A stretch of 64,000 nucleotides of DNA from an uncultured Clostridia bacterium (lineage in GTDB: Bacteria > Bacillota > Clostridia > TANB77 > UBA1234): contig CAKPEF010000001.1 in the NCBI GenBank assembly GCA_934149305.1, positions 36,748 through 100,747 on the forward strand, in the 5' to 3' direction. Positions 21,413-29,375 of the stretch are shown one piece after another. The translations under genes were made by a program, and so were the position numbers. Every line of letters begins with the position of its first letter. Position 1 is the stretch's first letter. The notes beneath the pieces are model-generated. The model was not told the origin of the DNA, did no database searches, and worked only from the letters and a program-made list of their open reading frames with translations.

Positions 21413-22999
21413 TTACTTACAAAACGAAATTATATTTCTAAAATAATTTGACCATGTCGGCTCAAAATTTCCTTTTACACTTTTATTTGTAAGTATTGTA
21501 TTGTTTTTGAAATAAAGACCTATATATGGCGCTTCACTTTTATATAAAATTCCAAAGGCAGGCATATTTTCTTTGTAATTTTCTTCATCTATTTTTAATT
21601 TCTCTATTATTTTTTGCATTGTATCTGATGAATAATTTGCATAATTTATTTTACTATCTTTTGAAACAGTTTCTATCGGAATTGTTTCATTTTTTATGTC
21701 TAAAGATGTTAATATAAGTTCAAATTTATCCTGTTCAATACTATTTTTTAAATTCTCCAATGTTGTTTTTGCTATTGTTATATTTATACCAATCTCAGCT
21801 AAATCTTCTTTCACTTTTTCTGCAACAAGAACCTTTTTCTCACTATCTTTATTTACCATCAATGTGAAGTTTAATTTATAATCTTTACCATTTATTTCTT
21901 TATGCCAAAAAGTTTCAGTCTGCTCCCAACCAGCATTTATTAAAATTTGTTTTGCCTTTTCTATGTTATATTCTGCATTTGTTATACTATTTTTAGAATT
22001 AGTATGTATTGGAATATCGCTAATAGTAGCGTTTTCATTATATACACTGTTTATTATGTTTTCTCTATTTATGGCTTGTAGAATTGCTCTTCTTACTGAG
22101 CCTTCTGATAAGACAACATTTTGACAGTTTGGCACTATTGCTTCATACTCGGTGTTTTCAAAGCTGTACGAGTTCATGCCTATAGTTCCAAACTTTTCTT
22201 TCCACGAAGTCATATTTGTAACTATCATATCTACTTCTGCAGATTTAAACGCCTTTACAGCTTCGCCATATGTTGAGTATTTATATACAGTTATTTTATT
22301 TAGTTTTGCCTCTTCACCATTCCACCATGATTTATTAAATAAAAGTTCTATACTTCCATCGGAGTTTGTTTGTGAATATTTATATGGACCTGTTCCAACC
22401 ATTTTTTCTGCTTTTGTTTCATTATTAAAATTATCACCTTTAAAATAATACTCTGGCAATATCGGAAAATTAAGTTTAGTTATAAAAAAATCATCCGGAT
22501 TATTTAATGTAACTTTTATTGCTCCATCATCTATTTTTTCTACAGTGCTTATATTTTCCACATTTGAACTGTATGTAAGATTATTGTTTTTCAACAAATT
22601 AAATGTAAAGATAACATCATTTGATTTTAGCGTTTCTCCTGCAGTGTGCCATTTAACGCCATCCTTTAATTTTAAAATCCAAGTTGATGCATCTGTTTTT
22701 GCATAACTTTGAAGTAAGACACATTCTATCTCTTCATCACTTTTATAGCTAATCAACGGTTCATATACCAAACTCAATATTGTGGCAACACCATTATTTT
22801 GAGTTTTTAATGGGTTCAATGTATCGACTTCTGCAATTGATAAATTTAATTCATCTCTATATATTTCTGTTACTATTTCTTTGTTTTCTGTTTCTTTTTT
22901 ATCTATATTTTTAGTATTTTCTTTTATTTTTTTAAACTCTTTTATAAAGCCACATGTAAATGCTATTATTATTAAAAATAAAATGATTCTTTTTCTCAA
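21413..22999 (-). CDS. ABC transporter substrate-binding protein, family 5 (peptide/nickel type), orphan (no adjacent permeases)
   Basis: Signal peptide plus length and sequence character of the SBP_bac_5 family. Confidence 0.55.
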   Translation of the reverse strand: MRKRIILFLIIIAFTCGFIKEFKKIKENTKNIDKKETENKEIVTEIYRDELNLSIAEVDTLNPLKTQNNGVATILSLVYEPLISYKSDEEIECVLLQSYAKTDASTWILKLKDGVKWHTAGETLKSNDVIFTFNLLKNNNLTYSSNVENISTVEKIDDGAIKVTLNNPDDFFITKLNFPILPEYYFKGDNFNNETKAEKMVGTGPYKYSQTNSDGSIELLFNKSWWNGEEAKLNKITVYKYSTYGEAVKAFKSAEVDMIVTNMTSWKEKFGTIGMNSYSFENTEYEAIVPNCQNVVLSEGSVRRAILQAINRENIINSVYNENATISDIPIHTNSKNSITNAEYNIEKAKQILINAGWEQTETFWHKEINGKDYKLNFTLMVNKDSEKKVLVAEKVKEDLAEIGINITIAKTTLENLKNSIEQDKFELILTSLDIKNETIPIETVSKDSKINYANYSSDTMQKIIEKLKIDEENYKENMPAFGILYKSEAPYIGLYFKNNTILTNKSVKGNFEPTWSNYFRNIISFCK

Positions 23000-23159
23000 A
23001 CTATCACCTCTTTTTCAAAAATTATTCTATAACACTATTTTGTTTTTATCAAGAATGAGTTATCAAAGAGTTTTATGTTTTTGCGATTCCTTGAAATTGC
23101 TGTAATTTTGTAAAAAAAATTATTGCAAACTTTATAAATAGCACAATCAATGTAGCTTA

Positions 23160-23376
23160 AGCTTAAGTGTGCTCCATGAAAAATAATTGATTGTAATGCA
23201 CAAAAATAAAAAACATAAAAATCGCGATTACTAATTGAATACATCAAACTTCACATGTGACACAATCGATGTAGCGGAGCACAGTGTGCTCCATAAAAAC
23301 CTATCGATAGTAACATACTAAAATAAAATTGGATATATATTGTAGTTAGTAATGGAGCACGCTGTGCTCCGCTACA
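23160..23376. repeat. Cluster of three copies (two minus, one plus orientation) of the palindromic repeat family
   Basis: ATGTAGCTTAAGCTTAAGTGTGCTCCATG (23160-23188), ATGTAGCGGAGCACAGTGTGCTCCAT (23269-23294), ATGGAGCACGCTGTGCTCCGCTACA (23352-23376), with unit-like flanks. Confidence 0.6.
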
Positions 23377-23511
23377 ACCTCAAGTTGGTGGTAGTACATT
23401 AAAACAAATTTTGATATATGTTGTAATTACGCTTTGGTAAAAACTTTTATTTTTTCGCTTGAAGTAACATTCTATATATCATATAATCATTTCTATAGAG
23501 GAGGGATTTTT

Positions 23512-24825
23512 TTGAATAGTAAAGTTTTAGTTACAATAATTATAATTGTTTCTGCCACATTAGGTTTGTACCTTGGTGCTAACCAAGTTACATCGAAAAA
23601 AGAAAATATTAAAGATACGCATTCTGATGGCCTATATGCTCCTTCTGGTGATGTTTCTAATGATAATAATATTTCTGATGTGGATTTTTCGGGAGATGGT
23701 GATAATATAGTGCCTAGTGGTGAGCAACAGCCTACAGTTACTCCTACACCAATTCCAACAGATACTGTTAGTAGTAATAGACTTACAATGCCAGAAAATT
23801 TTAAAGCTACATATATGACTGGTTGGGGTGCCGGAACAAAAAATATAAGAGAATCTGTTATAAAAACAATGAAAGAATATGGTTTTAATGCAATTGTTCT
23901 AGATATTAAAGATGAAGGTGGCCAATTATCTTACAATTCAAAAGTACAAACAGCAGTCGATGTTGGTGCGTCAAAAAATATGATTAGAGATATTGATGCT
24001 GTTTTAAAAGAGTTTCACGATAATGGAATTTATGTTGTCGGCAGAATAGTGACATTTAAAGATCCAATTTATGCTGGTAGTGTTAAAACAACTGTTGCAT
24101 ATAAAAAGGCTGACGGAACAACATGGAAAGATTATTCTGGCAAGGCTTGGCCTAACCCATACAATGAAAACTCTTGGGAATATCCAATTGCACTTGCAAA
24201 AGAAGCTGCAGAGCTTGGATTTGATGAGATTCAATTTGATTATATTAGATTTCCATCTTCTGAGGGAAAAATAAGAGAAATTGCATATGGTTTTAATTCA
24301 GCCACTGCTTCTAAAGCAGATACAATTTGTGCTTATTTAACTAAAGTTATGCAAGAGTTAGCTCCATACAATATACCAATTTCTGCTGATGTTTTTGGAA
24401 TAACAACAAAACGCGATGGAGACTTTGAAAATATAGGACAAGACTTTGCAAGAATTTCTGGTATTGTTGATGTAGTTTGTCCAATGGTTTACCCATCACA
24501 CTATGCAAATAACGAATACAAGATTGCAAAACCTGATTTGGCTCCTTATGATACAATATATAGAGCACTTCAAGATGCGCAAAAGAGATTATTAGTTTAT
24601 AGTGGAGATTCAAATGCAAAGGTTGCTTCTATTAGACCTTATCTTCAAGACTTTACAGCCTCTTGGCTAGGAAAAGGAAATTATCAAACATATGGAACAA
24701 ACCAAGTTGCAAAACAAATTCAAGCAACATATGATTTAGGATTAAAAGATTTCACTCTTTGGGATCCAAGCAATAAATACTGCTATGATGCAATAACAAA
24801 AGTTACAATGAAAACCGAAGAATAA
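23512..24825 (+). CDS. Putative glycoside-hydrolase-like (GHL/DUF4015-type TIM barrel) secreted protein
   Basis: TTG start at 23512 after AGGAGGGA; single TM/signal; motifs NAIVLDIKDEGG, IYVVGRIVTFKDP, WPNPYNE, DEIQFDYIRFP. Confidence 0.5.
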   Translation: MNSKVLVTIIIIVSATLGLYLGANQVTSKKENIKDTHSDGLYAPSGDVSNDNNISDVDFSGDGDNIVPSGEQQPTVTPTPIPTDTVSSNRLTMPENFKATYMTGWGAGTKNIRESVIKTMKEYGFNAIVLDIKDEGGQLSYNSKVQTAVDVGASKNMIRDIDAVLKEFHDNGIYVVGRIVTFKDPIYAGSVKTTVAYKKADGTTWKDYSGKAWPNPYNENSWEYPIALAKEAAELGFDEIQFDYIRFPSSEGKIREIAYGFNSATASKADTICAYLTKVMQELAPYNIPISADVFGITTKRDGDFENIGQDFARISGIVDVVCPMVYPSHYANNEYKIAKPDLAPYDTIYRALQDAQKRLLVYSGDSNAKVASIRPYLQDFTASWLGKGNYQTYGTNQVAKQIQATYDLGLKDFTLWDPSNKYCYDAITKVTMKTEE

Positions 24826-24831
24826 TTTTTA

Positions 24832-24875
24832 AAAGCTTATCTTCTATCAAACTGATAAAAGATAAGCTTTTTATT
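24832..24875 (+). terminator. Intrinsic terminator of the GHL gene
   Basis: AAAGCTTATCTT-loop-AAGATAAGCTTT followed by TTTATT. Confidence 0.7.
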
Positions 24876-24880
24876 AAACC

Positions 24881-25080
24881 AAAAAAACCCCACGTGAAGC
24901 CGTTTAATTTGAGCGGATTTAAGAGCCTGCGTACACAGGTGGGTGTTCTCCTAGGTACTTACGGGCTTCTCACTTACACATATAAATGTGTGAGCTTGCA
25001 CACCATACCCAGAGTTCCAAACTCCCTTAAAATTTAGTGTTGGTTCTAAATATAACTCAAGTAATCGTACTTTGTAGGGT
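24881..25080 (-). ncRNA. Candidate ~200-nt small RNA (6S-like?) with its own promoter
   Basis: A sigma-A promoter lies just upstream. The 5' end (AACCCUAC) can pair with the 3' end (GUGGGGUU), and the RNA ends in U7 at plus 24881-24887. No ORF. Sits between convergent genes. Confidence 0.4.
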
Positions 25081-25087
25081 TAATATT

Positions 25088-25115
25088 ATTATAGCATATT
25101 TTTATAATTTTGCAA
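25088..25115 (-). promoter_or_regulatory. Sigma-A promoter for the candidate sRNA
   Basis: Minus strand TTGCAA - 16 nt - TGcTATAAT (extended -10). Confidence 0.55.
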
Positions 25116-25300
25116 AGGTTTTTGATGGTAAAATTCTTACATTTTTGTGCAAATTTTGCTTGACAATTTTAGCATAATTATTTATTAAAATGTCGCCCTT
25201 TGCAATAATCAATTTCCACTATTGTTCATGCCAAAATTATTCAATTACCATTCTATATTTTCACCTACAAATATGCTTTGCAAGTGCTTTTTGTGTTTTC

Positions 25301-28300
25301 TTATGCAAGTCTTACTAATTTTATCTTTACTTTTTCGCCATTTATATCTAACTCTGTTTCTCCCTCGCCTTTTTCTATCTTGTCTGCTAATGTTTCATCT
25401 GCTATTTGTTCTTTGTTTCTTTCTATTATTTCTGCCATTTTTTCGTTATCTGAATAGTAGATTTCTATATGATTTTGTACTTCAAATCCAGAGTCTTTTC
25501 TTAGGTTTTGTATTTTTGAAATTAGCTCTCTTACAAATCCCTCTTCAATTAGTTCATCATTTAATTCTATATCTAAGACTACTACTATATCTCCCTCTTG
25601 TGCAGATATATATTTTTCTGATTTTGTTGTTTCTATTAGTAAATCTTCTTCTTTTAATTCTATTTTTGCATCTCCGATTTCTAATATCAATACGCCTTTT
25701 TCACGTAGCTCATGTACAAATTCTGTTCCATCTCCACCCTTTAACATTTGGCTAATTGTTGGCAATATTGCTCCATATTTTGGTCCAACTGTTTTTAAGT
25801 TTGGCTTTACATTATATGATACAAATCTACCTGCATCTTCTGTAAATTCTATCTCTTTTACATTTAGCTCTTCTTTTATTATGTCTTGATAATCTTTTGC
25901 CAATTCTTTTGTTGTTCCAACATAAGCTTTAGCAAGCACTTGTCTGTTTTTCATGTTTGATATATTTCTACATGATCTTCCAAGTGTAACTATCTCTAAT
26001 ACTAGTTCCATGTTTTCTTCTAGTTTCTTATCGATGTATTCTTCATTCGCTACTGGATAATCACACAAATGAATACTTTCTGGAGCTGTTTTATCTAAGT
26101 TTCTTACTAAGTTTTGATATATTTCTTCTGTCATAAATGGTACAAATGGTGCTGTTACTTTAGCTAGAGTAACTAAGCATGTATACAACGTCATGTATGC
26201 ATTTATCTTATCTTGTTCCATTCCATTTGCCCAGAATCTTTCTCTACATCTTCTTACATACCAGTTAGAAAGTTCATCTGTAAAGTCTTGTATCAATCTT
26301 GCACTTTCTGTTATCTTGTATTCTTGCATTAAGCTATCTACATCTTTTACAAGTGTATTTAATTTTGATAATGCCCATTTATCCATTTGAGATAATTTAT
26401 CATATTCTAATTTATATTCTAAAGGATTGAAGTTATCTATGTCTGCATATAAAACATAGAAAGCATATGTATTCCAGAATGTTCCGATAAATTTTCTTTG
26501 ATATTCACTTATTCCTTCTGGATAAAATCTTGTTGGAAGCCATGGTGATGAACTTGCACAGAAATACCATCTTACAGCATCCGCACCTTGTTTATCTAGT
26601 ACTGACCATGGGTCTACTACATTTCCTTTGTGCTTACTCATTTTTAATCCATCTTTATCTTGAACATGTCCTAATACTAAGCAGTTTTCAAATGGTGCTC
26701 TATCAAATAATAATGTTGAGATTGCCATAAGTGTATAGAACCATCCTCTTGTTTGGTCTATTGCTTCACTTATAAATTGTGCTGGGAATCTCTTTTCAAA
26801 TAGTTCCTTATTTTCAAATGGATAATGGTATTGTGCAAATGGCATTGAACCAGAATCAAACCAGCAGTCTATAACATCTGGAACTCTATGCATTTCTTTT
26901 CCGCATTTTTCACATTTTATAGTTATTCCATCTATATATGGTTTGTGTAATTCTATATCATCAGGAACATCTTTACCTAGTTTCTTTAATTCTTCTATGC
27001 TTCCAATTACATGATAATGTCCACATTCGCATTCCCATACTGGAAGTGGTGTTCCCCAATATCTAGAACGAGATAAGCCCCAGTCTATAACATTCTCTAA
27101 GAAGTTACCAAATCTTCCTTCTTTTATGTTCTCTGGCATCCAATTTACTGTGTTGTTATTTGCAACAAGTCTGTCTCTTAATGCAGACATTTTTATAAAC
27201 CATGTATCTACTGCATAATATAGAAGTGGTGTGTCGCATCTCCAACAGAATGGATATGAATGCTCGTATGGAAGTGCAGCAAATAATAAGCCTCTTTCTT
27301 TTAAATCGCTTAAAACAAGCTTATCTGCATCTTTAACCCATGTTCCAGCCCAATTGCCTGTTTCTTTTGTAAATTTTCCTTCTCCATTTACAAGTTGTAC
27401 GAAAGGTAAATCATTATCTCTTCCAACTCTACTATCATCTTCACCAAATGCAGGAGCTATATGTACAACACCTGTACCATCTGTAAGTGTAACATATGAA
27501 TCTGCTACAACATAGTATGCCTTCTTAGTAGGCTTTGCAAAGTCATATAATGGCTCATATTCTGTACCATATAAATCATTTCCTGTGTTAGAACGAACTA
27601 CTTTGTATTCTTCTTTTATTACACTTGGAACCAAAGCTTCTGCTAATATGTACCTTGTTCCATCTTCAACTTCAACCATTACATAAGTATCTTTTGGGCT
27701 AACGCACAATGCAACATTTGATGGAAGTGTCCATGGTGTTGTTGTCCAAGCTAGAATGTATGTGTTTTCTTCATTTTTAACTTTAAATTTTGCTATACAA
27801 GATGTTTCTTTAACATCTTTATATCCTTGTGCAACTTCGTGTGATGAAAGTGATGTTCCACATCTTGGGCAATAAGGTACTATTTTATGACCTTTGTACA
27901 ATAAACCTTTTTCATTTATTGTTTTTAATGCCCACCATTCAGATTCGATATAATCGTTGTGATATGTAACATAAGGATTTTCCATATCTGCCCAGAAACC
28001 AACTCTATCACTCATTAGCTCCCATTCATGTTTATATTTCCAAACACTTTCTTTACATTTCTTTATAAATGGTTCAACGCCATATTCTTCTATTTGTGGC
28101 TTACCATTTATTCCAAGCATTTTTTCTACTTCAAGCTCTACTGGAAGACCATGTGTATCCCAACCTGCTTTTCTTGGAACTTCGTAACCTTTCATTGTCC
28201 AAAATCTTGGAAATACATCTTTAAATACACGTGTTTCAATGTGTCCTATATGTGGCTTTCCATTTGCTGTTGGTGGTCCATCATAAAACATAAATGTTGG

Positions 28301-28414
28301 ATGTCCTTCTCTTTCTTTTATACTTTTTTCAAAAATCTTATTTTTCTTCCAGAAATCTATGATTTCTTTTTCTCTTTCGACTGCGTCTAAATTTGTAGAA
28401 ACTTTTTTGTACAT
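25301..28414 (-). CDS. ileS: Isoleucine--tRNA ligase
   Basis: HIGH (PTANGKPHIGH) and KMSKS (KMSKHKGN) motifs, 1037 aa, Zn-finger Cys pairs. Confidence 0.95.
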   Translation of the reverse strand: MYKKVSTNLDAVEREKEIIDFWKKNKIFEKSIKEREGHPTFMFYDGPPTANGKPHIGHIETRVFKDVFPRFWTMKGYEVPRKAGWDTHGLPVELEVEKMLGINGKPQIEEYGVEPFIKKCKESVWKYKHEWELMSDRVGFWADMENPYVTYHNDYIESEWWALKTINEKGLLYKGHKIVPYCPRCGTSLSSHEVAQGYKDVKETSCIAKFKVKNEENTYILAWTTTPWTLPSNVALCVSPKDTYVMVEVEDGTRYILAEALVPSVIKEEYKVVRSNTGNDLYGTEYEPLYDFAKPTKKAYYVVADSYVTLTDGTGVVHIAPAFGEDDSRVGRDNDLPFVQLVNGEGKFTKETGNWAGTWVKDADKLVLSDLKERGLLFAALPYEHSYPFCWRCDTPLLYYAVDTWFIKMSALRDRLVANNNTVNWMPENIKEGRFGNFLENVIDWGLSRSRYWGTPLPVWECECGHYHVIGSIEELKKLGKDVPDDIELHKPYIDGITIKCEKCGKEMHRVPDVIDCWFDSGSMPFAQYHYPFENKELFEKRFPAQFISEAIDQTRGWFYTLMAISTLLFDRAPFENCLVLGHVQDKDGLKMSKHKGNVVDPWSVLDKQGADAVRWYFCASSSPWLPTRFYPEGISEYQRKFIGTFWNTYAFYVLYADIDNFNPLEYKLEYDKLSQMDKWALSKLNTLVKDVDSLMQEYKITESARLIQDFTDELSNWYVRRCRERFWANGMEQDKINAYMTLYTCLVTLAKVTAPFVPFMTEEIYQNLVRNLDKTAPESIHLCDYPVANEEYIDKKLEENMELVLEIVTLGRSCRNISNMKNRQVLAKAYVGTTKELAKDYQDIIKEELNVKEIEFTEDAGRFVSYNVKPNLKTVGPKYGAILPTISQMLKGGDGTEFVHELREKGVLILEIGDAKIELKEEDLLIETTKSEKYISAQEGDIVVVLDIELNDELIEEGFVRELISKIQNLRKDSGFEVQNHIEIYYSDNEKMAEIIERNKEQIADETLADKIEKGEGETELDINGEKVKIKLVRLA

Positions 28415-28416
28415 TT

Positions 28417-28779
28417 TTATTCCTCCCTCTTATTTAATTCTAAAGCAATTATTTTTCTTATATCATCTTCTAATGTGCTTAAATCGTTGTTTATAACATA
28501 CCAAATACTTTTTAAGTTTATTCCCTCATAATCATGAACAATTCTATTTCTAAGTCCTTTTATCATATTCCATTCTATAAAATCATATTTATTCATTAGC
28601 TCTTTTGATATATTTTTTATAAGCTCTCCAATTTGGCTAATTGCAAAAACTGTAGCATCTCTTGTTTTCTCATCTTCTGTAAACATTTCAAATGTATATC
28701 CTTTTGTATATCTTTTTGCTCTTTCAATATATTCAATTATTTTTTCGAGTGATATGTACTCTTTATCTTTCATATACAA
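28417..28779 (-). CDS. hepT: HepT-like (DUF86) toxin of a HepT/MntA nucleotidyltransferase toxin-antitoxin pair
   Basis: ~120 aa with the RNRIVHDYEGINL (Rx4HxY) motif; overlaps the upstream nucleotidyltransferase gene; its stop lies 2 nt before the ileS ATG. Confidence 0.6.
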   Translation of the reverse strand: MYMKDKEYISLEKIIEYIERAKRYTKGYTFEMFTEDEKTRDATVFAISQIGELIKNISKELMNKYDFIEWNMIKGLRNRIVHDYEGINLKSIWYVINNDLSTLEDDIRKIIALELNKREE

Positions 28780-29071
28780 TCACCCCCGTTTTCTTAATCT
28801 CTTCTGCTATTTTTGAATTATCTATAATCTCTGCTTTTTCAAATGCATCAACTCGTTTTTGAAATGCCTCTTCTATCTTAGTAATTAAACTATATAATTT
28901 AAAACCTATTAAAGTCTCTTTCGTATCTATTACAAAATCTAGGTCGCTATTTTCATTTGCCAAGTTTTTAGCATAAGAACCAAATAGCACAACACTCTCA
29001 ACCGGAAAATTTATCATAATTTTCTTCAGTATTTCTTTTATTTCCTCTAAGGTATATACTTTACCGCTCAT
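28763..29071 (-). CDS. mntA: MntA-like minimal nucleotidyltransferase (antitoxin)
   Basis: VVLFGSYAKNLANENSDLDFVID (GS...DxD NTase motif). Start ATG 29071 with a GGGGGCG RBS. The longer track ORF would run into the terminator, so I reject that start. Confidence 0.6.
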   Translation of the reverse strand: MSGKVYTLEEIKEILKKIMINFPVESVVLFGSYAKNLANENSDLDFVIDTKETLIGFKLYSLITKIEEAFQKRVDAFEKAEIIDNSKIAEEIKKTGVIVYER

Positions 29072-29108
29072 AACTACGCCCCCTTTTCTTAAAATTTTAA
29101 TTTTTTTC

Positions 29109-29370
29109 CAAAACAAAAAGCACCTTGCCCTAAAGTTACCTTCGGACAAAGTGCTTAAGCTCTTTGCTATACCACCTACATACTAACATATGCGTTCTTC
29201 TATAACGTGAAGACCAACCCGGCAAAACTTACTCTTGTTTCTGTTTTGCAACATAAAAGGTGATTTTCGGCTTATCTATTAGCTATGAAACTTTCAGCAA
29301 ATGTTTCACTCTCTAAAGCTTTTAATAAACTTACTCTCCTTTATAATAGTTTTTATTACTCTTAAAACTA
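29109..29370 (-). promoter_or_regulatory. T-box-like riboswitch leader (Ile, AUC specifier candidate) with a terminator, upstream of mntA-hepT-ileS
   Basis: Stem-I-like AGAGAGUGAAAC; candidate specifier GAAAAUCACC (AUC + A); T-box-like GUAGGUGGUAUAGC; terminator AAGCACUUUGUCC-loop-GGGCAAGGUGCUU followed by UUUUUGUUUU at 29109-29156. Confidence 0.4.
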
Positions 29371-29375
29371 GTTAT

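What the first reader, a model, noticed from the sequence alone, without database searches (positions are those of the whole stretch)
24881..25115. Candidate ~200-nt sRNA with a consensus promoter in a convergent intergenic gap (6S-like?)
On the minus strand, a near-consensus promoter (TTGCAA-16-TGcTATAAT) points into a 420-bp gene-free gap between the GHL gene and ileS. The downstream ~195 nt contain no ORF and end in U7. The 5' end (AACCCUAC) can pair with the 3' end (GUGGGGUU), and there are several internal hairpins (for example CUCACACAU..AUGUGUAAGUGAG), which resembles a 6S-like closed rod. The conserved SRP motif (GGAAGGAAGCAGC) is absent.
Basis: partly seen in the sequence, partly recalled or inferred. 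Interest (0 to 1): 0.55.

Follow-up and report, generated by a model that had tools for sequence, protein, structure and literature searches.

The report
Ordinary 6S RNA gene (ssrS)

Summary
The Rfam 6S/SsrS model (RF00013) matches window 24883..25083 (minus strand) end to end (model 1-187/187) at 85.9 bits. The gathering score is 46.4 and E is 1.5e-15. It is the only 6S hit in the window.

The RNA has the 6S rod shape: a closing stem, a P2 helix, a central bubble with a small hairpin on its 3' side, and an apical stem. Of the 51 consensus pairs, 44 are standard pairs. Five other distinct 6S sequences from metagenomes support the fold: 92% of cells are paired and 19 of 42 pairs change on both sides, against 3-7 in slid controls.

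A TTGCAA-16-TGcTATAAT promoter lies 7 nt upstream of the 5' end. Its TTG and TGnTATAAT are kept in a homologue about 78% identical. The RNA ends in a U7 run. By alignment with E. coli U44 and B. subtilis C40, product-RNA (pRNA) synthesis should start opposite C25039 and give 5'-GUUGGUUCUAAAUA.

The host is an uncultured gut Clostridia bacterium. The position next to ileS is not conserved in related species.

Verdict: already known, low interest.

The parts
25110..25115 (-). -35-like hexamer TTGCAA
   Evidence: Promoter scan. The TTG is invariant in the L084/L089 homologue at the same alignment columns.
25088..25096 (-). Extended -10 element TGcTATAAT
   Evidence: TG-n-TATAAT is invariant in the ~78% identical homologue and lies at the same distance from AACCC.
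24881..25083 (-). 6S RNA (ssrS) gene. Rfam match 25083..24883. The inferred transcript runs from about A25081 to the U7 run at 24887..24881, about 195-201 nt.
   Evidence: RF00013 at 85.9 bits, model 1-187/187. The start site is inferred from the -10 position. The 3' end is inferred from the U run and from the point where similarity to L081 and L084 stops.
25066..25081 (-). Closing stem, 5' strand (AACCCUAC, AAGUACG)
   Evidence: Rfam consensus pairs mapped onto the sequence. Helices 1 and 2 show covariation.
24886..24902 (-). Closing stem, 3' strand (CGGCUU, GUGGGGUU)
25042..25051 (-). P2 ('downstream') helix, 5' strand AUUUAGAACC. It pairs with 24927..24917 (GGCUCUUAAAU) with one A-C mismatch.
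   Evidence: Rfam alignment, pair mapping.
25039..25052 (-). Predicted template for the product RNA (pRNA). Initiation is opposite C25039. Predicted 14-mer: 5'-GUUGGUUCUAAAUA-3'.
   Evidence: C25039 aligns to Rfam model position 45. That position equals E. coli U44 by my own counting of the E. coli sequence. It also corresponds to the nt-40 start of B. subtilis 6S-1 (PMC8876501), whose pRNA is 5'-GUUCGGUCAAAACU (PMC12005410). Computed. This is an inference by homology.
25027..25041 (-). 5' strand of the central bubble (AACACUAAAUUUUAA)
   Evidence: Unpaired in the Rfam consensus.
24926..24939 (-). Hairpin on the 3' side of the central bubble, CCUGU-GUAC-GCAGG. Its two basal C-G pairs use the same GG (24927, 24926) that closes the top of P2.
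   Evidence: Predicted in the MFE fold and in the RNAalifold consensus, with 2 pairs changed on both sides (helix 7). Replacing the top 2 bp of P2 with this hairpin gives -36.7 against -32.8 kcal/mol.
24941..25026 (-). Upstream helix plus apical stem-loop (GGGAGUUU/GAACACCC, UGGGUAU/GUACCUA, GC/GC, CUCAC/GUGAG). The apical hairpin ACACAU/AUGUGU is an extension of about 9 nt inserted relative to the model.
   Evidence: Helices 3-6 show covariation.
24881..24887 (-). U7 run directly after the closing stem, the presumed 3' end
   Evidence: Sequence. The 98.9% identity block shared with L081 starts exactly at 24881. A U run is also kept in L084.
24828..24876 (.). 19-bp AT-rich hairpin. It most likely terminates the convergent DUF4015 gene on the + strand, where it is followed by UUUUUAUU. 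It could also back-stop 6S read-through.
   Evidence: Fold. The stop codon of the DUF4015 ORF is at 24823..24825.
25120..25148 (-). A/T-rich stretch upstream of the -35 (AAAAATGTAAGAATTTTACCATCAAAAA), conserved in the L084-type homologue. It may be an UP element or a regulator site.
   Evidence: Alignment A2. Its function is not tested.

Best explanation
This is the 6S RNA gene (ssrS) of an uncultured gut Clostridia bacterium.

Shown here:
- The sequence and secondary structure match the 6S family model end to end.
- The fold is supported by compensatory changes in homologues.

Inferred:
- A sigma-A type promoter with an extended -10 starts transcription at about A25081.
- The roughly 200-nt RNA ends at the U7 run after the closing stem.
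- It folds into a rod whose central bubble mimics an open promoter.

Inferred from established 6S biology (E. coli and B. subtilis 6S-1):
- The RNA occupies the active site of the housekeeping RNA polymerase holoenzyme when nutrients run out.
- When NTPs return, the polymerase copies the 5' bubble strand, starting opposite C25039, into a short product RNA (predicted 5'-GUUGGUUCUAAAUA).
- The product RNA unzips helix P2.
- The freed GG can then close the hairpin on the 3' side of the bubble, and the rearranged RNA is released.
For: - Family match: RF00013 at 85.9 bits against a gathering score of 46.4, E = 1.5e-15, model 1-187/187, not truncated. No other family matches these bases at E <= 1. 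It is the only 6S hit in the window.
- Structure: 44 of 51 consensus pairs are standard pairs.
- Homologues: a pattern built from two conserved motifs retrieved 10 metagenome loci, and 9 of them are full-length Rfam 6S hits at 82-110 bits.
- Covariation: on 6 distinct sequences, 92% of cells are paired. Nineteen of 42 pairs change on both sides, against 3-7 when partners are slid, and 0 of 500 shuffles reach the observed score.
- Not coding: indels of 1, 1, 7 and 2 nt between the window and L084 rule out a conserved reading frame.
- Promoter: TTG and TGnTATAAT are invariant and at a fixed distance from the 5' end in a ~78% identical homologue that has different neighbouring genes.
- pRNA start: the aligned start nucleotide is a C, as in B. 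subtilis 6S-1, where GTP initiates at nt 40 (PMC8876501). The predicted pRNA shares 9 of 14 positions with 5'-GUUCGGUCAAAACU (PMC12005410).
- Bubble hairpin: a hairpin on the 3' side of the bubble is present, as in B. subtilis 6S-1 (PMC8876501).
Against: - There are no expression, end-mapping or RNA polymerase binding data.
- The promoter motif alone is within chance for this AT-rich DNA.
- The single-sequence MFE fold does not form P2. It pairs part of the 5' bubble strand locally instead.
- No local terminator hairpin precedes the U7 run, so the exact 3' end is uncertain.
- Seven of 51 consensus pairs are not standard pairs.
- Only six distinct sequences, two of them nearly identical, underlie the covariation count.
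Confidence: 0.95

Rival explanations
1. The RNA is not, or not only, made from its own promoter. It would be cut out of ileS read-through transcripts, so its level would follow the T-box (tRNA-Ile charging) control of ileS. The closing stem plus U7 would also serve as the ileS terminator.
For: No canonical intrinsic terminator lies between the ileS stop (25301) and the 6S 5' end. The scan finds none, and the only strong hairpin after the stop has no U tail. Both genes are on the same strand, 217 nt apart. 6S precursors with 5' leaders that are later trimmed are known in B. subtilis and E. coli (PMC10578484).
Against: A well-placed promoter with an extended -10 is conserved in a homologue that lies behind a cation-efflux gene, not ileS. 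The four closest ileS relatives have no 6S downstream of ileS, even at E <= 0.1. The linkage is therefore recent and not needed for 6S function.
Confidence: 0.2
2. A chance resemblance or a decayed, non-functional 6S relic.
For: No expression data exist. The z-score of the single-sequence fold is modest (-2.26).
Against: E = 1.5e-15 with a full-length match. The copy in L081 differs at 1 of 201 aligned positions, while the neighbouring DUF4015 gene has drifted to 88.8%. Compensatory changes preserve the helices. No second 6S in the window could replace it.
Confidence: 0.02
3. The locus encodes a small protein on the plus strand (24894..25037, 47 aa, or 25037..25177, 46 aa), and the RNA fold is incidental.
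For: Two antisense ORFs with GTG starts exist.
Against: Indels of 1, 1, 7 and 2 nt relative to the L084-type homologue break any frame. Substitutions are of the compensatory RNA type. The ORFs are mechanical calls with GTG starts, and no sign that they are real genes was sought or seen.
Confidence: 0.01

Closest known systems
Bacillus subtilis 6S-1 RNA (bsrA), the Firmicutes 6S-1 type
   Same: Length of about 190-200 nt. Rod with a central bubble. A small hairpin already present on the 3' side of the bubble. The predicted pRNA start is opposite a C, so GTP would initiate, within a GA(A/C)C(C/G)AAC context. The predicted pRNA GUUGGUUCUAAAUA compares with GUUCGGUCAAAACU (PMC8876501, PMC12005410).
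   Different: The sequence is much more AT-rich. The apical hairpin is extended by an insertion of about 9 nt. The bubble hairpin competes with the top two pairs of P2. Whether a bubble-collapse helix forms was not computed. The genomic context is different (downstream of ileS). The B. subtilis sequence itself was not aligned here; only its published pRNA was compared.
Escherichia coli 6S RNA (ssrS)
   Same: Same Rfam family and overall architecture. The pRNA start position aligns to U44. Disruption of P2 frees 3'-strand nucleotides that can pair within the 3' side of the bubble, a small-scale version of the E. coli release hairpin (PMC8876501).
   Different: In E. coli the 3' side of the bubble is unstructured in the free RNA, and a 9-bp hairpin forms only after pRNA synthesis. 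The initiating nucleotide there is A, opposite U44. E. coli ssrS is co-transcribed with ygfA and is processed by RNase E/G.
Ms1 RNA of actinobacteria
   Same: A rod-like RNA that binds RNA polymerase (PMC9130861).
   Different: Ms1 binds core polymerase, is about 300 nt long and occurs in Actinobacteria. There is no Rfam Ms1 match here.

Membership tests
6S / SsrS RNA (Rfam RF00013) | Covariance-model score at or above the curated gathering score over the full model | tested here: met
   85.9 bits against 46.4, model 1-187/187, E = 1.5e-15.
6S / SsrS RNA (Rfam RF00013) | Rod-shaped fold of about 180-200 nt: closing stem, large central bubble, apical stem | tested here: met
   Length of 195-201 nt, depending on the exact ends. 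44 of 51 consensus pairs are standard pairs. The helices were mapped. Covariation: 19 of 42 pairs change on both sides, against 3-7 in slid controls.
6S / SsrS RNA (Rfam RF00013) | Conserved sequence blocks around the bubble and apical stem (GGUGUGCAAGC, GAAGCC, ACACCCACCUG) | tested here: met
   Invariant in all six aligned 6S sequences. The two-block pattern retrieved 10 loci, 9 of which are Rfam 6S hits.
6S / SsrS RNA (Rfam RF00013) | Template position for product-RNA synthesis in the 5' strand of the bubble | tested here: inconclusive
   C25039 aligns to the E. coli U44 / B. subtilis nt-40 position, and the context GAACCAAC resembles GACCGAAC (PMC8876501, PMC12005410). Actual synthesis cannot be tested with these tools.
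6S / SsrS RNA (Rfam RF00013) | Binds housekeeping sigma RNA polymerase holoenzyme and inhibits transcription | not testable with these tools
   Needs co-purification or gel-shift experiments.
6S / SsrS RNA (Rfam RF00013) | Abundant stable transcript, usually accumulating in stationary phase | not testable with these tools
   No transcriptome data. Only a conserved promoter-like site points to expression.
Firmicutes 6S-1 subtype (as opposed to 6S-2) | Pre-formed hairpin on the 3' side of the bubble and a G-initiated pRNA | tested here: inconclusive
   The hairpin is predicted and covaries. The G start is inferred by alignment. No 6S-2 reference was compared, and the rest of the genome is not available to look for a paralogue.

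The most novel reading that the evidence does not exclude
In this lineage 6S has recently become the 3' neighbour of a T-box-controlled type-2 ileS with no terminator between them. Part of the 6S pool could therefore be made by ileS read-through, which would couple uncharged tRNA-Ile sensing to global RNA polymerase sequestration. The T-box, ileS and 6S stretches are 98-99% identical between two metagenome sources whose flanks differ, so they might move by recombination as a unit.
Probability: 0.1. Interest if true: 0.35.

Novelty: already known. Interest (0 to 1): 0.08.

Why it matters
It adds little beyond correct annotation. 6S RNA is among the best-studied bacterial regulatory RNAs, and the standard Rfam model finds this copy at nearly twice its threshold, so any Rfam-based pipeline should label it ssrS. 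Its use is practical. It gives a predicted promoter, predicted ends and a predicted pRNA sequence for an uncultured gut Clostridia bacterium.

Tried and rejected
- Synteny: I fetched 80 ileS loci from genome contigs expecting 6S downstream of ileS. None was found by Rfam in L001-L012, by blastn in all 80, or at E <= 0.1 in the four closest. The ileS linkage is therefore lineage-specific and gave no homologues.
- Exact-protein look-up of the DUF4015 neighbour: not on record. The longest-ORF TTG start probably differs from the called gene.
- Downstream AT hairpin (24828..24876) as the 6S terminator: its U tail is on the + strand, so I assign it mainly to the DUF4015 gene.
- Intrinsic-terminator scan: the only hit is the 6S apical region itself, which is spurious.
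- The microRNA model hits are AT-hairpin noise.
- Single-sequence MFE folding did not recover P2 and did not show a bubble-collapse helix after blocking the pRNA template. I make no claim about that helix.
- Three Python scripts crashed. In one search the cause was an unbalanced bracket string, because the bubble hairpin overlaps P2. This was fixed.
- I ran no further search on naming the organism more precisely.

Full report
**Observation**

On the minus strand the window reads TTGCAA (25115..25110), a 16-nt spacer, TGcTATAAT (25096..25088), 6 nt, then AACCCUAC... and, at the far end...GUGGGGUUUUUUU (ending at 24881). The promoter scan lists the site at 10 of 12 with a TG extension.

The gap between the convergent DUF4015/GHL-type glycosyl-hydrolase-like gene (23434..24825 +; Pfam PF13200, E = 1e-108) and ileS (25301..28414 -; TIGR00392 966 bits) is 475 bp, not 420. 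No minus-strand ORF of 20 aa or more overlaps the RNA. Two plus-strand ORFs of 47 and 46 aa are antisense to it.

The promoter motif alone is not exceptional in this ~30% G+C DNA. TGNTATAAT occurs 10 times against 9.8 expected. With TTG at -35 it occurs once against 0.18 expected, and 16 of 100 shuffles reach that.

**Identity**

Rfam 15 at gathering thresholds gives two hits in the 64 kb: a tRNA, and RF00013 (6S/SsrS) at 24883..25083 (-). The 6S hit scores 85.9 bits against a gathering score of 46.4, with E = 1.5e-15, model positions 1-187 of 187, and no truncation. A permissive scan of the gap finds no other family on these bases; its only other hit is a microRNA-model hit on the AT hairpin just downstream. 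A permissive scan of the whole window finds no second 6S.

**Anatomy**

I mapped the Rfam consensus pairs onto the sequence. Of 51 pairs, 44 are standard pairs.

| Element | 5' strand | 3' strand | Sequence |
|---|---|---|---|
| Closing stem, outer | 25081..25074 | 24893..24886 | AACCCUAC / GUGGGGUU |
| Closing stem, inner | 25072..25066 | 24902..24897 | AAGUACG / CGGCUU |
| P2 | 25051..25042 | 24927..24917 | AUUUAGAACC / GGCUCUUAAAU |
| Upstream helix | 25026..25019 | 24948..24941 | GGGAGUUU / GAACACCC |
| Apical arm | 25011..24990 | 24973..24952 | UGGGUAU, GC, CUCAC / GUGAG, GC, GUACCUA |

- The 5' strand of the central bubble is 25041..25027 (AACACUAAAUUUUAA).
- The apical arm ends in an ACACAU/AUGUGU extension, an insertion of about 9 nt relative to the model.
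- The 3' side of the bubble carries a small hairpin, CCUGU-GUAC-GCAGG (24939..24926). It appears in the MFE fold and in the RNAalifold consensus.
- The two basal C-G pairs of that hairpin use the same GG that closes the top of P2, so the two structures exclude each other. The version with the hairpin evaluates to -36.7 kcal/mol, against -32.8 for the plain consensus.
- The unconstrained MFE is -54.2 kcal/mol with z = -2.26. It keeps the closing and apical arms but pairs part of the 5' bubble strand locally instead of forming P2.

**Comparative support**

A pattern built from two conserved blocks (GGTGTGCAAGC, a 35-60 nt gap, ACACCCACCTG) retrieved 10 metagenome loci. Nine of them are full-length Rfam 6S hits at 82-110 bits.

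- L081 carries a copy that differs at 1 of 201 aligned positions and has the same neighbours (DUF4015 +, 6S -, ileS -).
- The group L084, L086, L089 and L090 is about 78% identical. There the 6S lies behind a cation-efflux gene and near serS, not ileS.

On six distinct sequences the consensus fold has 42 pairs:
- 92% of cells are paired, against 37.5-46% when partners are slid.
- 19 pairs change on both sides, against 3-7 when slid.
- 0 of 500 shuffles reach the observed covariation score.

The set is small and two rows are nearly identical, so this supports the Rfam score rather than standing as independent proof. Indels of 1, 1, 7 and 2 nt between the window and L084 exclude a conserved reading frame.

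**Transcript ends**

In the L084-type homologue the TTG of the -35 and the TG-n-TATAAT are invariant and keep the same distance to AACCC, while the remaining -35 bases and most of the spacer differ. This conservation supports the promoter, which motif statistics alone do not. A start at about A25081, 7 nt after the -10, is inferred.

At the 3' end, similarity to both L081 and L084 stops at the U run. The 98.9% identity block shared with L081 starts exactly at 24881. No local hairpin precedes the U7 run; only the long-range closing stem does.

The strong 19-bp AT hairpin at 24876..24828 has its U tail on the plus strand. It is best read as the DUF4015 terminator, though it could also stop any 6S read-through.

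No canonical terminator separates ileS from 6S. Read-through from ileS followed by processing is therefore a possible second source of the RNA, as with known 6S precursors (PMC10578484).

**Mechanism (inferred from the family)**

6S RNAs mimic an open promoter and bind housekeeping RNA polymerase holoenzyme. They are released when the enzyme copies the 5' bubble strand into a short product RNA, or pRNA (PMC10578484, PMC8876501).

In the Rfam alignment, window C25039 occupies model position 45. By my counting of the E. coli sequence (from memory) that is U44. It also corresponds to the nt-40 start of B. subtilis 6S-1 (PMC8876501), judging from the shared context GAACCAAC versus GACCGAAC.

The predicted 14-mer is 5'-GUUGGUUCUAAAUA. 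It matches 9 of 14 positions of the B. subtilis pRNA 5'-GUUCGGUCAAAACU (PMC12005410) and starts with G, as that one does. Synthesis would unzip the 5' strand of P2 and free GG 24927/24926 to stabilise the bubble hairpin. That step is plausible for release but is untested.

**Context and organism**

The closest ileS relatives are uncultured gut Clostridia/Eubacteriales MAGs from human, sheep and other gut samples, at 83-86% protein identity. None of the four closest has a 6S downstream of ileS. The ileS-6S adjacency is therefore confined to this species-level lineage.

**Verdict**

This is a standard member of a well-known RNA family, detected by the curated model at nearly twice its threshold. 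Novelty: already known. Interest: low.

Noticed in passing
window 28417..29356 (-): A T-box leader at 29139..29356 scores below the gathering score (65.8 bits against 93; E = 9.6e-14 in the 1.3-kb scan), and its terminator U run ends near 29108. It is separated from the ileS ribosome-binding site by a 661-bp MntA/HepT type VII toxin-antitoxin cassette (MntA ATG 29071; HepT ATG 28773, stop 28417). The cassette is absent from L081, which is otherwise 98-99% identical over the stretches it shares here and has only 12 nt at that point. The toxin-antitoxin genes therefore appear to sit under T-box control together with ileS.
   Followed up: partly
L002 2629..4001: In a related species (ileS 86% identical) the T-box leader is about 1.1 kb upstream of ileS, and a 369-aa ORF (longest-ORF call) lies between them. 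The T-box/ileS junction seems to accept inserted genes in more than one lineage.
   Followed up: no
window 23438..29404 vs L081: Identity to L081 is 98.9% over 6S plus ileS (24881..28434) and 98.4% over the T-box (29096..29404), but only 88.8% over the DUF4015 gene. The break falls exactly at the 6S U run, and L081 has about 157 extra nt there. Upstream of the T-box there is no similarity at all: L081 has a PMT_2 glycosyltransferase-like gene, the window a BofC-like gene. Possible causes are recombination or transfer of the T-box-ileS-6S block, or a chimeric assembly.
   Followed up: partly
window 25120..25148 (-): The A/T-rich stretch AAAAATGTAAGAATTTTACCATCAAAAA just upstream of the 6S -35 is largely conserved in the ~78% identical L084-type locus, although the surrounding DNA is not. 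It contains an imperfect palindrome, GTAAGAATTTTAC. It could be an UP element or an operator.
   Followed up: no
window 25301..28414 (-): The IleRS is the type-2 form (1037 aa). Its best NCBIfam scores are to MupA and MupB (1036 and 1014 bits), well below their 1900-bit cut-offs, so it is a housekeeping type-2 enzyme and not a mupirocin-resistance gene call.
   Followed up: no
window 50130..50271 (-): A ribosomal protein L20 leader (RF00558) matches below threshold: 48.7 bits against a gathering score of 58.7, E = 1.4e-6.
   Followed up: no
window 23000..23433: A 434-bp divergent gap lies between the peptide-binding ABC transporter gene (21413..22999 -) and the DUF4015 gene. G+C is slightly raised and AT skew is positive around 23100..23400. 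A spurious microRNA-model hit at 23271..23375 suggests a long hairpin. It was not examined.
   Followed up: no
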